Positions 3,244 through 27,362 of a stretch of DNA of 64,000 nt are shown here, piece by piece. The stretch is from contig CAWKKR010000005.1 of assembly GCA_963850305.1 (NCBI GenBank), positions 128,001 to 192,000 on the forward strand, in the 5' to 3' direction. The notes under the pieces were generated by a model, which was not told the DNA's origin, did no database searches, and was given only the letters and a program-made list of their open reading frames with translations. Position 1 is the first letter of the stretch, and each line of letters starts with the position of its first letter. This DNA comes from an uncultured delta proteobacterium (lineage in GTDB: Bacteria > Myxococcota_A > Polyangia > Polyangiales > Polyangiaceae). A program made the position numbers and the translations under genes.

Positions 3244-3611
3244 GGCCTTGCCCCCGCGGCTCGCTTCGCGCCCGCTCCCCCCGCCGCCTTCGGCGGGCTC
3301 GCTCCGCTCGTTAGGTAAAGGGGGCCTTGCCCCCGCGGCTCGCTTCGCGCCCGCTCCCCCCGCCGCCTTCGGCGGGCTCGCTCCGCTCGTTAGGTAAAGG
3401 GGGCCTTGCCCCCGCGGCTCGCTTCGCGCCCGCTCCCCCCGCCGCCTTCGGCGGGCTCGCTCCGCTCGTTAGGTAAAGGGGGCCTTGCCCCCGCGGCTCG
3501 CTTCGCGCCCGCTCCCCCGCCGCCTTCGGCGGGCTCGCTCCGCTCGCGTAGTTCCGCGCTTGTTTCATCCCTCGGGGACGACGTGCATCGTCGATGCGGA
3601 ACTACTAGGAA
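3244..3611. repeat. Modular REP/BIME-like element copy 1: four ~79-bp units plus terminal GTAG hairpin module (3548-3605)
   Basis: Unit GGGGGCCTTGCCCCCGCGGCTCGCTTCGCGCCCGCTCCCCCGCCGCCTTCGGCGGGCTCGCTCCGCTCGTTAGGTAAA; module GTAGTTCCGC...TGCGGAACTAC. Confidence 0.9.
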
Positions 3612-19587: not shown

Positions 19588-20235
19588 ATGAGCAAAGTCG
19601 CGGTATTGGGTTCCGGGCAGGTCGGGCAGGTCCTTGCGGATGGCTTCCTGAAGCACGGGCACGCCGTGATGCGAGCGAGTCGGGATCCGGCGAAGCTCGC
19701 GGCGTGGAAAGCGGGAGCAGGAGCGAAGGCGAGCACGGGCACCTTCGCGGAAGCGGCCAAGTGGGGCGACCTCGTCGTGCTCGCCGTGAAAGGCGCCGCT
19801 GCGGAGCAGGTCGTCGAGCAAGCGGGGGTGGGGAACCTCGCCGGCAAGGTCGTTCTCGACACGACCAACCCCATTGCCGAATCGCCGCCGCAAAATGGCG
19901 TCCTCCGCTTCTTCACGAACCTCGACGAATCGCTCATGGAGCGACTTCAGAAAAAAGCCCCCGCCGCACATTTCGTGAAGGCCTTCTCCTGCGTGGGGAG
20001 CGCGCTCATGGTCGACCCCGTCCTTTCCGGTGGACCTCCGACGATGTTCATCTGCGGCAGCAACCCCGGAGCAAAGGCGACGGCGCGTGAGCTCCTGACC
20101 CAGTTCGGGTGGGAAACGGCGGACATGGGTGCGATAGAAGCCGCGCGCGCCATAGAGCCCTTGTGCATCCTCTGGTGCATCCCCGGCATGACCGGCGGCG
20201 GCTGGACCCACGCCTTCAAGCTCCTGCGGTCCTAG
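19588..20235 (+). CDS. NADPH-dependent F420 reductase / NADP oxidoreductase family protein
   Basis: Rossmann GSGQVG, DTTNP, VKAF, MFICG, AARAIEPL. Confidence 0.85.
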   Translation: MSKVAVLGSGQVGQVLADGFLKHGHAVMRASRDPAKLAAWKAGAGAKASTGTFAEAAKWGDLVVLAVKGAAAEQVVEQAGVGNLAGKVVLDTTNPIAESPPQNGVLRFFTNLDESLMERLQKKAPAAHFVKAFSCVGSALMVDPVLSGGPPTMFICGSNPGAKATARELLTQFGWETADMGAIEAARAIEPLCILWCIPGMTGGGWTHAFKLLRS

Positions 20236-20378
20236 ACCAACCCTCGCTCCACGCGAGCCGACAGGCAGGGCCCCGTCGGCCGCCGAGACCACGATCGGCC
20301 AAAAAAGGGCGCGTGAGAAATGCCGGCATGGCCGGCGAGGGCCGCTCGCAGATAGCGAACGACGCGATGCGGGCTAGT

Positions 20379-20426
20379 CAAAGAGTCAAAGAGCCAAAGA
20401 GCCAAAGAGCCAAAGAGCCAAAGAGC
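20379..20426. repeat. 8-bp tandem repeat (CAAAGAGC)x6
   Basis: CAAAGAGT followed by five CAAAGAGC, intergenic. Confidence 0.95.
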
Positions 20427-20498
20427 CCTAGTAAATGGCCGCCTCGCCAGGCTACGCTCGAGAGTCCGTCTTTAGCATCGGATCAAGGAGCCCTGGCA

Positions 20499-21080
20499 AT
20501 GCACAGAGTGATGGTGGGAGCGGTACTGGCGAGTGTGATTGGGGGCACGTGGGGATGCGTGCCGCGTCTAGCAACAGAGGAGGAACGCGTATTTTCCGCG
20601 CGATCCGTCGTGAATGTGGCGCCCGGGTCGTCGCCGCCGCTCGTGGGGACGTATGATTTCGACTTGCTCGGCGATGCGCAGGGACAAGCCTGCGCGGAAT
20701 GGGGCGACATGAACAAGCTCGGATTCCGGCAGATCCTCGTCGACGGACACCCGGCCATCTACACGGCCGCGGTCGCTGGCGCGACCTTCGACAGCGACGA
20801 TCCCCTCGTCCGGCAAGCGGAGTCGGCGGCCGTGTTCAACGCGCTCAGCAAGCTGAACGGCGCAGATCTGATGTTCGTCACGCGATCGTCGTTGACCTCG
20901 GACACGGCGGAAAAGCTCTGCGCGACGGTCTGGGGGCAGATCGTTCGATTGAAGAAGGGGCCAACGCTGTCGCCGAAGGCCATCGCAGAGCTGCCGGCGA
21001 CCATGCCGTCGCCGTCGCCGGCGCCAGGCACGGCACCGCCGCCCCCGCCGGCCGCCGCGCCCGCGCCCGCCGCTCAGTAG
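20499..21080 (+). CDS. Hypothetical lipoprotein with Pro/Ala-rich tail
   Basis: AAGGAG RBS; signal peptide ending TWGC; two further Cys. Confidence 0.7.
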   Translation: MHRVMVGAVLASVIGGTWGCVPRLATEEERVFSARSVVNVAPGSSPPLVGTYDFDLLGDAQGQACAEWGDMNKLGFRQILVDGHPAIYTAAVAGATFDSDDPLVRQAESAAVFNALSKLNGADLMFVTRSSLTSDTAEKLCATVWGQIVRLKKGPTLSPKAIAELPATMPSPSPAPGTAPPPPPAAAPAPAAQ

Positions 21081-21210
21081 ATGCCCATCGGCGAGAGCGC
21101 CTTCCCCGAAGCATGAAGCTCGGGTCGTCGCGTGGACGGTGGAGTCGAGTGTATCCTGCCGCGGCGTCGGGAACGAGGTCGGCCGTGACTTGGTGCCAAG
21201 AACCCGTTCA

Positions 21211-21344
21211 GTAGTTCCGCATCGACGAGCAGCGTCGTCCCCGAGGAATGAAAGCGGTGCGGAACTACCGAGCGCAGCGAGTACCGGGGGGAGGGGTTGC
21301 GTAGCAAGCCCCGGGGGGCGGGCAACGCCCCCCTTTCCTAGTAG
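21211..21344. repeat. Modular REP-like element copy 2 (reverse orientation): GTAG module 21211-21268 plus one variant unit
   Basis: GTAGTTCCGCA...TGCGGAACTAC, then hairpins GGGGTTGC-GTA-GCAAGCCCC and GGGGGGCG-GGCAA-CGCCCCCC. Confidence 0.85.
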
Positions 21345-21459
21345 ATGGACCCGGAGCCCTGCGAGCACCCCGAATTGTGACCACGGGTCGAAAGATTCCG
21401 GGAGCACGCCTAGTAGACTTCGATGACGAGGGCTCCTCTCGACGCGCCGAAAGGAGGAG
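21345..21459 (+). ncRNA. Candidate IS110 bridge/seek RNA region
   Basis: Stem GGAGCCCT (21353-60)/AGGGCTCC (21429-36), inner CCCGAAT/ATTCCGGG and GACC/GGTC stems; loop contains CCTAGTAGA (21409-17), identical to the element junction. Confidence 0.55.
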
Positions 21460-21465
21460 ATGGTC

Positions 21466-22692
21466 ATGGAAGTCATGTATCCCCGTTGCGCGGGCCTCGA
21501 CGTCCACAAGGATAGCGTCGTTGCCTGCGTGCGCTGCGTCAGCGAACCAACGCGGCGCGAGGTCCGAACGTTCGGCACGACCACACGTAGCCTCTTCGAG
21601 CTGGCGGAATGGCTCGAGGAGCACGGCGTGACCCACGTGGCGATGGAGGCCACCGGCGTGTACTGGAAGCCGGTCTGGCACATGCTCGAAGGGAGCTTCG
21701 AACTCGTGCTCGCGAACGCCCAGCACATTCGCAACGTGCCAGGGCGCAAGACCGACGTGAACGACGCGACGTGGATCGCCGATCTGCTCGCGCACGGGCT
21801 GATCCGCAGCAGTTTCGTGCCTCCTGCGCGAATCCAGGAGCTGCGCGATCTCACTCGAACGCGCAAGCAGCTCGTGCGAGAAATCGCCCAGCACACGCTG
21901 CGCATACAGAAAACGCTCGAGGACTCGAACATCAAGGTCGCGAGCGTCCTGTCCAGCGTGCTCGGGACCAGCGGCCGGGCGATGCTCGCCGCTCTCATCG
22001 CCGGAGAAGATGACCCCGAGCGCCTTGCCGATCTCGCGGTCGGTACCGCGCGCAAGAAGAGGGCCGACTTGATCGAAGCGCTGCGCGGGCGGGTTACCCC
22101 TCATCACCGAGCCATGCTGAAGCTGCATCTCGGCGTCATCGGCTCGCTCGAAGGGGCCCTGGCCGAGATCGATGCAGCTGCGGGAAAAGCGCTGGAGCCG
22201 ATCCGGGCGCACGCCGAGATCCTGACGACGATGCCGGGAGTGAGTGACATCGTCGCGAACGTGATCGTGGCGGAGATCGGCGTCGACATGTCGCGCTTCC
22301 CGTCTGCGGGACACCTCGTGTCCTGGGCCGGCCTCTGCCCCCGCAACGACGAGAGCGCCGGCAAGCGTCGCTCGACGCGCGTCCGCAAGAGCGCCAACTG
22401 GCTCAAGACGACGCTCGTCACATCCGCCTGGGCCGCGGTGCGCACGAAGGAAAGCTACCTTCGAGCCCAGTTTCTCCGGCTCAAGTCCCGCCGTGGAGCA
22501 AAGAAGGCGATCTTGGCCGTCGCCGCATCGATGCTCACCGCCGCCTTCTACATGCTCCGCGACGGCACTCCCTACCGCGACCTCGGACCCCATCACTTCG
22601 ACCGCCGCGACCAGAGCAAGACCATCAAACGCCTCGTCCGCCGCTTGACCGACCTCGGCTGCGAAGTCGAGATCAAACCTCATGCGGCGTAG
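21466..22692 (+). CDS. IS110-family DEDD recombinase/transposase
   Basis: CAGLDVHK, VAMEATGVYW, GRKTDVNDA (DEDD) and C-terminal WAGLCPRNDESAGK containing the conserved Ser; RBS AAGGAGGAG favours ATG 21466. Confidence 0.96.
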   Translation: MEVMYPRCAGLDVHKDSVVACVRCVSEPTRREVRTFGTTTRSLFELAEWLEEHGVTHVAMEATGVYWKPVWHMLEGSFELVLANAQHIRNVPGRKTDVNDATWIADLLAHGLIRSSFVPPARIQELRDLTRTRKQLVREIAQHTLRIQKTLEDSNIKVASVLSSVLGTSGRAMLAALIAGEDDPERLADLAVGTARKKRADLIEALRGRVTPHHRAMLKLHLGVIGSLEGALAEIDAAAGKALEPIRAHAEILTTMPGVSDIVANVIVAEIGVDMSRFPSAGHLVSWAGLCPRNDESAGKRRSTRVRKSANWLKTTLVTSAWAAVRTKESYLRAQFLRLKSRRGAKKAILAVAASMLTAAFYMLRDGTPYRDLGPHHFDRRDQSKTIKRLVRRLTDLGCEVEIKPHAA

Positions 22693-22701
22693 AGCTTCCT
22701 A

Positions 22702-23111
22702 GTAGTTCCGCACCGACGAGCACCGTCGTCCCCGAGGGATCAAAGAGCTGCGGAACTACGCGAGCGCAGCGAGCGCGCCGAAGGCGGCGGGGGAGCGGTC
22801 GCGGAGCGAGCCGCGGGGGTCAAGACCCCCTTGCGAACACGAGCCCGCCGAAGGCGGCGGGGGAGCGGTTGCGAAGCAAGCCGCGGGGGTCAAGACCCCC
22901 TTGCGAACACGAGCGCGCCGAAGGCGGCGGGGGAGCGGTCGCGAAGCGAGCCGCGGGGGTCAAGACCCCCTTGCGAACACGAGCGCGCCGAAGGCGGCGG
23001 GGGAGCGGTCGCGAAGCGAGCCGCGGGGGTCAAGACCCCCTTGCGAACACGAGCCCGCCGAAGGCGGCGGGGGAGCGGTCGCGAAGCAAGCCGCGGGGGT
23101 CAAGACCCCCC
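22702..23111. repeat. Modular REP-like element copy 3 (reverse orientation): GTAG module 22702-22759 plus five 70-bp units
   Basis: CAAGACCCCC recurs at 22821, 22891, 22961, 23031 and 23101. Confidence 0.92.
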
Positions 23112-23148
23112 TTGAGCAGCCCTGGCCGGGTAAGGACCTCGCTGCAGT

Positions 23149-24138
23149 TCAGTACGGCGCCTCGCCGATGTAGTTGCCGGCGGGGCTGTAGTTGCAGATC
23201 CAGATGTCTTCTTGGAACGCGCCGTCCTGGCAGGTCGAGACGCCGCAGCCGAGCTGGGTGCTGTTCCGCCAAACGATCTGCGTGTAATGGCCGCACCCGT
23301 CGCTGTTGAGCGCCTCGTAGCACGTCGGATTGCATTGCTCGGTCCCGGAGATCGTCCCGTACGTCCAGCACGACTCCTCCGCGGCCCAGCCGCTCACGGC
23401 TTGCTGCGCCGTACTTCCGTTGCCGCCGGCATACCTGAAGACGGCGAGGTTTTCTCCGTACCCCACCTGCTCGAGTTCTTGCTCCGTGCGGTGGTGCGGG
23501 CTGGCGCAGTCGGTCTGCGCGAGGCTATCGGCCCATTGCTGTGCATACGCGGCGATCGTCGGTGACCACGTGAGCGGTGGCAACGGTGTCGAAGTCTGGA
23601 CCGCCGCGCGCACGGCGTTGTGTGCGGCCGTGATACCGGCGAGCCGTCCCGTTTCGGGATCACCGCCACTCGACCCGCCGGTGCCGGCACCCCCCGCCCC
23701 AGCGCCACCGTTGCCGATCGCGCCACCGTTGCCGATCGCGCCACCGTTGCCGATCGCGCCACCGTTGCCGATCGCGCCACCGTTGCCGGAGCCGATCGCG
23801 CCACCGTTGCCGATCGCGCCGCCGTTGCCGATCGCGCCACCGTTGCCGGAGCCGATCGCGCCACCGTTGCCGGAGCCGATCGCGCCACCGCTGCCGATCG
23901 CGCCACCGTTGCCGGAGCCGATCGCGCCACCGTTGCCGATCGCGCCGCCGTTCCCGGAGGCGTTCGCACCACCATTACCGACTGCGCCCCCGTTTCCACC
24001 GAACACCATCGCGCCGCCCTGACTTCCGTTCCCGAGTTGCGATGGCGGCGGGCTCGCGCCGTCCGCGCTGCACGCGACGGCGCCCAAAGTGCACCCGGCG
24101 GCCACTACCGCGCACCACAGTCGAGACGTCTGCGCCAT
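23149..24138 (-). CDS. CAP/SCP (PR-1-like) domain lipoprotein with GNGGAI repeat linker
   Basis: AHNAVRA, LTWSPTIA..AQQWA, YGENLA, CGHYTQIVW...LGCG, ICNYSPAGN; lipobox AVAC; start could also be 24150. Confidence 0.9.
   Translation of the reverse strand: MAQTSRLWCAVVAAGCTLGAVACSADGASPPPSQLGNGSQGGAMVFGGNGGAVGNGGANASGNGGAIGNGGAIGSGNGGAIGSGGAIGSGNGGAIGSGNGGAIGNGGAIGNGGAIGSGNGGAIGNGGAIGNGGAIGNGGAIGNGGAGAGGAGTGGSSGGDPETGRLAGITAAHNAVRAAVQTSTPLPPLTWSPTIAAYAQQWADSLAQTDCASPHHRTEQELEQVGYGENLAVFRYAGGNGSTAQQAVSGWAAEESCWTYGTISGTEQCNPTCYEALNSDGCGHYTQIVWRNSTQLGCGVSTCQDGAFQEDIWICNYSPAGNYIGEAPY
23700..23955 (-). repeat. Intragenic 18/24-bp tandem repeats encoding (GS)GNGGAI
   Basis: Repeated GCGCCACCGTTGCCGATC on the plus strand. 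Confidence 0.9.
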
Positions 24139-26935: not shown

Positions 26936-27362
26936 CTACCAGGAAAGGGGGCCTTGCCAGCCTTGCCCCCGCGGCTCGCTTCGCGCCCGCTCCCCCGCCG
27001 CCTTCGGCGGGCTCGTGCTCGCAAGGGGGTCTTGACCCCCGCGGCTCGCTTCGCGCCCGCTCCCCCGCCGCCTTCGGCGGGCTCGCGCTCGCAAGGGGGT
27101 CTTGACCCCCGCGGCTCGCTTCGCGCCCGCTCCCCCGCCGCCTTCGGCGGGCTCGCGCTCGCAAGGGGGTCTTGACCCCCGCGGCTCGCTTCGCGCCCGC
27201 TCCCCCGCCGCCTTCGGCGGGCTCGCGCTCGCAAGGGGGTCTTGACCCCCGCGGCTCGCTTCGCGCCCGCTCCCCCGCCGCCTTCGGCGGGCTCGCTCCG
27301 CTCGCGTAGTTCCGCAGCTCTTTGATCCTCGGGGACGACGCTGCTTGTCGATGCGGAACTAC
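26936..27362. repeat. Modular REP-like element copy 4: five ~70-bp units plus GTAG module 27306-27362
   Basis: GCAAGGGGGTCTTGACCCCC at 27021, 27091, 27161 and 27231; starts with CTACCAGGAAAGGGGG. Confidence 0.92.

What the first reader, a model, noticed from the sequence alone, without database searches (positions are those of the whole stretch)
21335..22705. IS110 recombinase inserted at a repeat-family junction, with a candidate guide RNA carrying its own junction sequence
Seen: an intact DEDD recombinase is flanked on both sides by TTCCTAGTAG (21335-44, 22696-705). Excising it regenerates CCCCCTTTCCTAGTAG|TTCCGCA, the junction between two modules of the dispersed repeat family. The ~115-nt left non-coding end folds (GGAGCCCT/AGGGCTCC outer stem, CCCGAAT/ATTCCGGG and GACC/GGTC inner stems). 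Its internal loop contains CCTAGTAGA (21409-17), a 9-nt match to the predicted circle junction CCTAGTAG|A and an 8-nt match to the target. A uniform-base estimate of chance occurrence is ~115/4^9, about 4e-4. Established: IS110 elements use bridge/seek RNAs from their non-coding ends, and IS621 targets REP sequences. Inference: donor and target share 10 bp, far more than the 2-bp core of IS621. I can see only one obvious guide, so this may be a compact variant in which one guide segment reads both donor and target. I could not identify convincing right-side guides.
Basis: partly seen in the sequence, partly recalled or inferred. Interest (0 to 1): 0.85.

Follow-up and report, generated by a model that had tools for sequence, protein, structure and literature searches.

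The report
IS110 jumping gene, guide RNA interrupted

Summary
All 8 genome copies share a further 134-bp left segment (window 21081-21214). It joins directly to ATGGACCC in 6 of 8 copies and in relatives from other phyla. The true left end (about 254 nt without the insert) encodes a two-arm bridge RNA with conserved, covarying helices. One 8-mer (TTCAGTAG, 21207-14) covaries with the left target flank. The shared core is AG.

In the window copy and one other, a 130-bp gene-less element (21215-21344) with IS-like ends sits exactly after the target guide. Relatives of this small element occur about 47 times, and their left flanks match the IS's target guide. This resembles ssr9/ISPpu9 modular transposition.

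The "compact single-guide" idea is refuted. Two side results remain. Guide order within each loop is reversed relative to IS621. The guide-coding DNA acted as a target for its own system. No RNA data were available.

The parts
21074..21080 (+). Left target half-site plus core (TCAGT+AG). TAG is also the stop codon of ORF 20109-21080.
   Evidence: All 8 copies diverge into unique DNA left of this point; 7 read TCAGTAG and 1 reads AGTAGTAG. It matches the target guide at 7 of 8 positions.
21081..21214 (+). True left end, part 1 (134 bp). It holds two 5' hairpins, the P1 5' strand (21164-70), the P2 5' strand GGTC (21177-80), a candidate right-target guide CCGTGACT (21183-90), hairpin P3 (21191-206) and the left-target guide TTCAGTAG (21207-14).
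   Evidence: Present in all 8 copies and nowhere else in the genome. Contiguous with 21345 onward in 6 of 8 copies and in relatives. Helix covariation; guide/flank covariation.
21215..21344 (+). 130-bp gene-less non-autonomous element inserted after the target guide. Its left about 40 nt resemble the IS left end.
   Evidence: Absent from 6 of 8 copies and from relatives. Metagenome contigs join 21209 to 21340. End similarity. Family members sit at 32 unique sites with a TCAGTAG-like left flank.
21345..21459 (+). True left end, part 2. It holds the P2 3' strand GACC (21348-51), P4 (21353-60 with 21429-36), the donor-loop 5' strand (21361-75), UGUG/CACG (21376-79 with 21405-08), the apical hairpin (21384-400), the donor guide CCTAGTAG (21409-16), the P1 3' strand (21439-45) and the ribosome-binding site GGAGGAG (21453-59).
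   Evidence: Donor guide against right end.
21460..22692 (+). DEDD/Tnp bridge-type recombinase gene (410 aa). The real start may be the ATG at 21466.
   Evidence: Pfam PF01548 and PF02371. Distant match to IS621 transposase 8wt6, E 1.1e-12. Intact in 8 of 8 copies.
22693..22705 (+). Very short right end: AGC, then the left-donor arm TTCCTAGT, then core AG.
   Evidence: Right ends of relatives end in the 7-8 nt that match their own loop-2 guide, after a conserved TTTC/CTTC motif.
22706..23116 (+). Array of the same non-autonomous family directly after the right end. One left-end-like hairpin module (22706-22760) is followed by 4.9 tandem 70-bp units (22770-23110), ending in a degenerate right-end-like motif.
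   Evidence: 7 of 8 IS copies are followed by such an array.

Best explanation
The locus is one copy of an eight-copy IS110-group insertion sequence.

Shown:
- The element runs from 21081 to 22705, about 1.49 kb without the insert.
- It recombines at an AG core.
- Its left end (about 254 nt without the insert) encodes a bridge RNA built as a three-way junction (P1) with two arms. In each arm an internal loop carries an 8-nt guide directly after a conserved GAGCNCG helix strand.
- Arm 1 (UUCAGUAG) is identical to the top strand of the left target flank plus core.
- Arm 2 (CCUAGUAG) is identical to the top strand of the element's own right end plus core.
- In the window copy a 130-bp gene-less derivative carrying IS-like left and right termini has inserted exactly after the target-guide-coding DNA. 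This separates the P1 5' strand, P2 5' strand, P3 and the target guide from the P2 3' strand, the donor arm and the P1 3' strand.

Inferred:
- As in IS621, the guides pair with the bottom strands of target and donor, and the recombinase exchanges strands at the core.
- The small element family (about 47 copies) is mobilised in trans by this IS. The family's left flanks fit this IS's target guide, and this IS encodes the only IS110-type recombinase genes found in the genome.
- The guide-coding DNA was hit because it is itself a perfect left half-site, and right-flank matching is loose here.
- The window copy depends on bridge RNA from the six uninterrupted copies. An identically interrupted copy at a second locus suggests it still moved.
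For: Boundaries:
- The 1371-bp query has 8 genome matches. Only 2 include the left TTCCT.
- Flanks are CGTTCAGTAG|ATGGACC in 6 of 8 copies.
- All 8 copies share 134 bp further left and diverge left of TCAGTAG|ATGCCC.
- The contiguous left end gives 6 full matches and 2 split matches (1-134 and 130-329).

Relatives:
- 41 related loci were found, from several phyla.
- The upstream segment is contiguous and conserved in nearly all of the 36 relatives read (L045 lacks it).

Structure (21 sequences):
- 26 pairs, 91.7% of cells paired against 31-50% when partners are slid.
- 17 pairs have compensatory changes.
- 0 of 500 shuffles reach the observed values.
- Frequent G-U pairs, including one invariant U-G, fit a plus-strand RNA.

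Guides:
- Target guide against left junction: at least 7 of 8 positions match in 17 of 21 cognate pairs, against 2 of 412 non-cognate pairs.
- Donor guide against right end: at least 7 of 8 in 16 of 17 cognate pairs, against 28 of 268 non-cognate pairs.

Small elements:
- 47 left ends were found: 32 at unique sites, 7 after the IS right end, 6 in tandem, and 2 inside the guide.
- At the 32 unique sites the left flank reads T20 C16 A25 G30 T25 A31 G29 of 32, which spells TCAGTAG.
- Their termini resemble the IS termini.
- Only 8 PF01548 genes exist in the genome.
- The insert is 100% identical only in the two interrupted copies.

Mechanistic frame: Durrant 2024, PMC11208160 (passages). ISPpu9/ssr9 precedent: PMC12288879 (abstract and passages).
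Against: - No RNA evidence. No RNA run holds the sequence, no promoter-like site was found in 20950-21500, and no circle junction was seen in contigs.
- Single-sequence folding recovers neither P1 nor P2, even in an uninterrupted copy. The structure therefore rests on comparison alone.
- Right-side guides are weak. The 42 right flanks in this genome show no consensus beyond A or C at position 1.
- The candidate right-target guide reaches 6 or more Watson-Crick pairs in only 2 of 14 relatives (0 of 182 non-cognate).
- No right-donor guide was identified.
- 4 of 21 relatives miss the 7-of-8 target-guide mark. By eye L028 is an alignment slip (7 nt match at the true junction) and L018 matches 6 nt; L037 and L041 do not fit.
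- The two interrupted copies differ at body positions 521-522. A single origin therefore needs later gene conversion, or the copying was itself conversion and not transposition.
Confidence: 0.85

Rival explanations
1. The element is 21345-22695, bounded by a 10-bp duplication. It has a compact bridge RNA of about 115 nt in which one guide (CCUAGUAGA) reads both donor and target.
For: The 10-bp repeat and the 9-mer exist. The P4 stem is real. Removing this unit would regenerate a junction type seen elsewhere in the genome.
Against: - 6 of 8 copies lack the left TTCCT.
- Covarying helices P1 and P2 cross the proposed boundary.
- A separate target guide covaries with the true left flank.
- In relatives the loop-2 8-mer follows the right end, not the target. 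L012 has target TCAATAG with loop CCTAGTAG.
- The base after the 8-mer is A in nearly all relatives, while the first base of their left end is mostly T. The ninth matching base is therefore coincidence.
Confidence: 0.03
2. The 134-bp upstream segment is not part of the IS. It is a conserved landing pad (another small repeat) into which the 'body' inserts at AGTAG.
For: The body is bounded by AGTAG on both sides. By analogy with the partial circles of ISPpu9 (PMC12288879, abstract), it might excise as a sub-circle.
Against: - There are no solo copies of the 134-bp segment. It occurs 8 times, each with a body.
- It is conserved and contiguous with the body across phyla, and RNA helices pair across the joint.
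- The flank left of the 134-bp segment, not the segment itself, covaries with the guide.
Confidence: 0.04
3. The 130-bp piece is ancestral, and the six contiguous copies are precise deletions of it.
For: Recombination between the two AGTAG cores would delete it precisely.
Against: No relative has it. It has both IS-like termini. Its family sits alone at 32 unique sites. The nearest other family member is 97.7% identical.
Confidence: 0.05

Closest known systems
IS621 of Escherichia coli with its 177-nt bridge RNA (Durrant 2024, PMC11208160; Hiraizumi 2026, PMC13626964; PDB 8wt6)
   Same: - DEDD plus Tnp recombinase.
- Long left end and very short right end.
- Non-coding RNA upstream of the gene with two internal loops, the first for the target and the second for the donor.
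- 7-8-nt guides identical to the top strand of the left target and of the right end, each including a shared 2-nt core.
   Different: - The protein is only distantly related (E 1e-12; 410 aa against 328 aa).
- The core is AG, not CT.
- The two arms hang on a three-way junction closed by P1.
- In both loops the long left guide lies 3' of the apical hairpin and the candidate right guide lies 5'. In IS621 the order is the reverse: left guide on the 5' side, LTG around nt 53 and HSG at 81-82.
- Right-side pairing looks weak.
- No Rfam family matched.
ISPpu9 and its ssr9 module (A/B and A'/B' boxes) in Pseudomonas putida KT2440 (PMC12288879; abstract and passages read)
   Same: - AG core.
- A palindrome close to the left end.
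- A gene-less module carrying copies of both IS termini, found directly downstream of the recombinase gene in most copies and alone elsewhere.
- In ISPpu9 circles of the IS, of IS plus module and of the module alone were shown. The layouts here (IS alone 1 of 8, IS plus array 7 of 8, module alone 32) fit that.
   Different: - Here the module is 130 bp or longer, with 70-bp tandem units, and is far more numerous (about 47).
- No small-RNA function is known for it.
- One module sits inside the bridge-RNA gene.
- No experiment has been done here.
Half-match recombination and expanded IS110 loci (bioRxiv 10.64898/2026.08.31.748434 and 10.64898/2026.08.14.744561; abstracts and outlines only)
   Same: Insertions here share the left half-site but not the right one. 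Loci have grown by tandem additions at the right end.
   Different: Those works concern IS621 in vitro and large cargo-bearing loci. No insertion into the guide-coding DNA is mentioned in what I read.

Membership tests
IS110 family (IS110 group) | Recombinase with an N-terminal DEDD (RuvC-like) domain and a C-terminal Tnp domain | tested here: met
   PF01548 at 98.2 bits (cut-off 29) and PF02371 at 80.3 bits (cut-off 21.3). IS621 transposase is the only PDB match.
IS110 family (IS110 group) | Long left and short right non-coding ends; no terminal inverted repeats; short shared core at both junctions | tested here: met
   Left end about 254 nt in the uninterrupted copy (220-263 in most relatives; 192 in L033). 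Right end 13 nt. AG at both junctions in own copies and relatives; AT in L014.
Bridge-RNA-guided recombination system | Structured RNA in the non-coding end with two internal loops | tested here: met
   Consensus structure with 17 of 26 pairs compensatory; 0 of 500 shuffles reach it. The topology differs from IS621.
Bridge-RNA-guided recombination system | The loop-1 guide covaries with the left target plus core | tested here: met
   17 of 21 cognate pairs match at 7 or more of 8 positions, against 2 of 412 non-cognate.
Bridge-RNA-guided recombination system | The loop-2 guide covaries with the right end (left donor) plus core | tested here: met
   16 of 17 cognate pairs match at 7 or more of 8 positions, against 28 of 268 non-cognate.
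Bridge-RNA-guided recombination system | Right-target and right-donor guides complementary to the top strand next to the core | tested here: inconclusive
   - The candidate right-target guide lies on the 5' strand of loop 1.
- The Dehalococcoidia element reads UGUC against right flank GACA at 4 sites (a fifth, L015, has GACA 2 nt in).
- The match is 7 bp including one G-U pair in L029, and 8 bp in L028 with a 1-nt shift.
- No consensus appears in this genome's 42 right flanks.
- No right-donor guide was found.
Bridge-RNA-guided recombination system | The RNA is made and bound by the recombinase; circular intermediate | not testable with these tools
   No RNA run is listed. Contigs show no circle junction.
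Non-autonomous IS110 derivative (ssr9/ISPpu9-type module) | No recombinase gene, copies of both IS termini, same target preference as the parent IS, found alone and next to the IS | tested here: met
   Only one IS110-type recombinase family is present in the genome. Mobility itself was not tested.

The most novel reading that the evidence does not exclude
This clade's bridge RNA is a permuted version of the IS621 design. The two guide arms sit on a three-way junction, and in both loops the order is right guide, apical hairpin, left guide. The DNA that encodes the left-target guide is a natural half-match target of its own system. Bridge-RNA genes can therefore be disabled, or re-wired, by their own non-autonomous derivatives. 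After the insertion, the guide next to P2 reads CCUAGUAG, the same as the donor guide.
Probability: 0.3. Interest if true: 0.55.

Novelty: new member of a known kind. Interest (0 to 1): 0.35.

Why it matters
As submitted, the finding promised a minimal one-guide bridge RNA, which would matter for genome-editing design. That is not what is here.

What remains is useful but modest:
- It is a clean natural example of an IS110 element whose target and donor guides can be read off directly and checked by covariation across phyla.
- The hitch-hiker family's roughly 47 insertions form a natural specificity record. They show strong left half-site dependence and almost no right-flank dependence, which fits the recently proposed half-match recombination.
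- It shows that guide-coding DNA can be hit by its own system, a point to keep in mind when bridge RNAs are encoded in cis.
- The reversed guide order within the loops may be of interest to people modelling bridge-RNA diversity.

Tried and rejected
- Rfam scan of 20800-23300 at E up to 10 gave only two chance-level hits.
MFE and partition folding of the whole left end, intact or interrupted, recovers neither P1 nor P2. It therefore says nothing about whether the interrupted RNA can still fold.
- Promoter and terminator scan of 20950-21500 found none.
- Sequencing runs: no RNA holder is listed. Contigs of 4 soil-metagenome runs from one study only re-show the uninterrupted copies, and no circle junction appears.
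- Right-donor guide: I looked for complementarity between loop 2 and the first 12 nt of the left end and found nothing consistent. Instead the 5' strand of loop 2 (CACC-NNNN) is identical to left-end positions around +20 to +28. The longest common substring averages 6.1 for cognate pairs against 4.35 for non-cognate pairs. This is unexplained.
- Stop-codon targeting: 5 of 7 IS sites end an open frame of 100 or more codons, but so do 4 of 6 internal control sites. The test does not discriminate in this GC-rich genome.
- I considered that the interrupted copy's CCUAGUAG-next-to-P2 guide drives insertions at right-end-like sites, and set it aside. Such sites differ from the normal guide only at two positions that are often mismatched anyway. 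None of the 8 IS left ends follows such a site.
- Earlier notes of this scan hold nothing for this place or sequence.
- Literature: a search for IS110 + non-autonomous + bridge RNA returned 2 papers, of which only the ISPpu9 paper is relevant. A search for bridge RNA + IS110 + permuted found nothing on guide order. Figures and bioRxiv supplements could not be seen, so the reversed order may already be drawn somewhere. A preprint reports 86 bridge-RNA models, many unlike IS621.
Full report
**1. What is in the sequence**

- TTCCTAGTAG lies at 21335-44 and 22696-705, and CCTAGTAGA at 21409-17.
- An intact 410-aa ORF at 21460-22692 carries the DEDD_Tnp_IS110 and Transposase_20 domains.
- Its only relative with a solved structure is the IS621 transposase, and the relationship is distant (8wt6, E 1.1e-12).
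- The 136-nt stretch does not fold better than shuffled sequence (z -0.38). Rfam has no match.

**2. The element was delimited wrongly**

- The genome holds 8 copies at least 99.5% identical, all with open recombinase frames.
- Only 2 of the 8 have TTCCT left of AGTAG|ATGGACC. The other 6 read ...GAACCCGTTCAGTAG|ATGGACC.
- Aligning 700 bp upstream shows that all 8 copies share a further 134 bp (window 21081-21214). They become unrelated only left of TCAGTAG|ATGCCCATCGG (7 copies) or AGTAGTAG|ATGCCC (1 copy).
- This 134-bp segment occurs 8 times in the genome, never alone.
- A BLAST of the contiguous left end gives 6 full matches and 2 split matches (1-134 and 130-329). The split ones are the window copy and C8:718137.
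- Contigs from soil-metagenome runs also show the form that skips 21210-21339. This only re-shows the other copies.

**3. Relatives settle it**

- 41 related loci were found (48-85% protein identity), in MAGs labelled Polyangiaceae, Anaeromyxobacteraceae, Eisenbacteria, Beta- and Alphaproteobacteria, Vulcanimicrobiota, Acidobacteriota, Dehalococcoidia and others.
- In nearly all of the 36 read, the counterpart of the 134-bp segment runs straight into the counterpart of ATGGACCC; L045 lacks it. Left ends are 220-263 nt in most.
- On 21 non-redundant left ends, RNAalifold gives 26 pairs in 5 helices. 91.7% of cells are paired, against 31-50% with slid partners.
- 17 pairs show compensatory changes, and 0 of 500 shuffles reach the observed values.
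Relatives have UGUG/CACG plus a capped hairpin.
- The many G-U pairs fit a plus-strand RNA.

**4. Two guides, not one**

- The 8 nt after the conserved GAGCCCG (own: TTCAGTAG, 21207-14) match the DNA immediately left of the element at 7 or more of 8 positions in 17 of 21 relatives. The rate for non-cognate pairs is 2 of 412.
  - Rows dropped before that count were L045 (no conserved upstream segment), L021 (contig starts inside the left end) and exact duplicates of guide pairs.
  - Of the four misses, L028 is by eye an alignment slip (7 nt match at the true junction), L018 matches 6 nt, and L037 and L041 do not fit.
- The 8 nt after GAGCACG (own: CCTAGTAG, 21409-16) match the last 8 nt of the right end at 7 or more of 8 positions in 16 of 17 relatives. 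The non-cognate rate is 28 of 268, and many of those come from near-identical guides.
- The two guides share only the final AG in most relatives (AT in the Dehalococcoidia element). The core is therefore AG, as in ISPpu9 (PMC12288879, passages).
- In this genome the target arm (TCAGT) and donor arm (CCTAGT) also happen to share AGT. This gives AGTAG on both sides.
- This is the bridge-RNA logic of Durrant et al.: the first loop reads the target and the second the donor, and long guides pair with the bottom strand (PMC11208160, passages).

**5. What the left TTCCTAGTAG is**

- Bases 21215-21344 are a 130-bp gene-less element.
- Its first about 40 nt align with the first about 40 nt of the IS left end.
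- Its last bases, CCCTTTCCTAGTAG, mimic the IS right end.
- It sits exactly after the target-guide-coding AG.
- The genome has 47 such left ends (at most 1 mismatch to a 19-nt pattern):
  - 32 at unique sites,
  - 7 directly after an IS right end,
  - 6 in tandem behind another unit,
  - 2 inside the guide.
- At the 32 unique sites the left flank reads T(20) C(16) A(25) G(30) T(25) A(31) G(29) of 32, which is the IS's target guide.
- The 42 unique right flanks show nothing beyond A or C at position 1.
- The only IS110-type recombinase genes found in the genome are these 8.
- The closest precedent is the ssr9 module of ISPpu9, with copies of both IS termini. It occurs with and without the recombinase gene and was shown to form its own circles.
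- TCAGTAG is rare here: 68 sites against about 363 expected from base composition. 24 of them are occupied: 7 IS copies, 11 small elements and the 6 internal guide sites.

**6. Reading of the window copy (inference)**

- The DNA coding the target guide is by construction a perfect left half-site, and right-flank matching is loose in this genome. It is therefore a legitimate target for the system.
- A hitch-hiker landed there and split the bridge-RNA gene.
- The insert is 100% identical only in the two interrupted copies. The next best family member is 97.7% identical. This points to one insertion event followed by copying to a second locus with different flanks.
- Since six intact copies can supply RNA and protein in trans, this is plausible. 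However, the two copies differ at body positions 521-522, so gene conversion is an alternative.
- Whether the interrupted RNA still works cannot be told. Folding is uninformative and no RNA data exist.
- The window copy also carries two private changes in the donor-arm hairpin: A for G at 21383 and an extra T at 21396.

**7. Differences from IS621**

- The long left guides lie 3' of the apical hairpin in both arms.
- The only candidate right-target guide lies on the 5' strand (21183-90).
  - In the Dehalococcoidia element, UGUC faces right flank GACA at 4 sites, and a fifth (L015) has GACA 2 nt in.
  - The pairing is 7 bp (including one G-U pair) in L029 and 8 bp with a 1-nt shift in L028.
  - Overall only 2 of 14 cognate pairs reach 6 or more Watson-Crick pairs, against 0 of 182 non-cognate pairs.
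- In IS621 the order is left guide then right guide: 5' side against 3' side, with LTG around nt 53 and handshake dinucleotides at 81-82 (PMC13626964, passages).
- I could not see figures or preprint supplements. A preprint reports 86 bridge-RNA covariance models, many unlike IS621, so I do not claim this topology is new.
- One thing is unexplained. The 5' strand of loop 2 repeats, rather than complements, left-end positions around +20 to +28. The same CCCCGA is kept in the small elements.

**8. Verdict**

This is a new member of a known kind. The compact single-guide reading is refuted. The side observations are worth a note but rest on sequence comparison only:
- the hitch-hiker family as a natural half-site specificity record,
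- the self-hit in the guide-coding DNA,
- the reversed guide order.

Noticed in passing
window 21074-21080 with ORF 20109-21080: The IS sits immediately after the TAG stop codon of the upstream ORF. The 7-mer target TCAGTAG carries stop codons on both strands and is about 5-fold under-represented in the genome (68 sites against about 363 expected). It may act as a gene-end 'safe' landing site, but the ORF-end test did not discriminate against an internal control.
   Followed up: partly
window 22770-23110: There are 4.9 tandem copies of a 70-bp GC-rich unit (96% matches), forming the body of the hitch-hiker array to the right of the IS. Array length differs between IS copies. No function is known and there is no Rfam match.
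   Followed up: partly
window about 3534-3601 and about 27292-27358 (genome C5:131534-131601 and C5:155292-155358): These are further partial copies (about 68 nt, 87-90% identical) of the left-end-like hairpin module of the small element family, elsewhere in the window.
   Followed up: no
left ends of relatives, alignment A1 columns about 20-44 and 173-187 (window 21100-21112 and 21366-21374): The 5' strand of the donor loop (CACC-NNNN) covaries as an identical copy, not a complement, of left-end positions around +20 to +28. Those positions form the 5' strand of a hairpin with the conserved loop ATGAA. The mean longest common substring is 6.1 for cognate pairs against 4.35 for non-cognate pairs. 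This could be a distal donor contact or an alternative RNA pairing.
   Followed up: partly
genome C8:1022309-1022660: Two tandem small elements with an AGTAC/AGTAT core variant are followed by a third mini-element. Its left end (GTGCCCATCGGCGA...) is closer to the IS left end than to the usual small-element end. The family therefore includes intermediates.
   Followed up: no
L017 (Dehalococcoidia relative), right junction: The right end of one IS copy is followed directly by the left end of another copy (head-to-tail tandem), as expected if right-end junctions are re-used as targets.
   Followed up: no
relatives of the genome: The IS is nearly absent from 40 related genomes searched. There are 3 weak partial hits, and none matches over the whole query. 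The closest recombinases (80-85% identity) are in MAGs labelled Anaeromyxobacteraceae, Polyangiaceae, Brocadiaceae and Myxococcales, and 73-79% ones in other phyla, several with the same two guides. This suggests recent horizontal arrival and a burst to 8 copies.
   Followed up: partly
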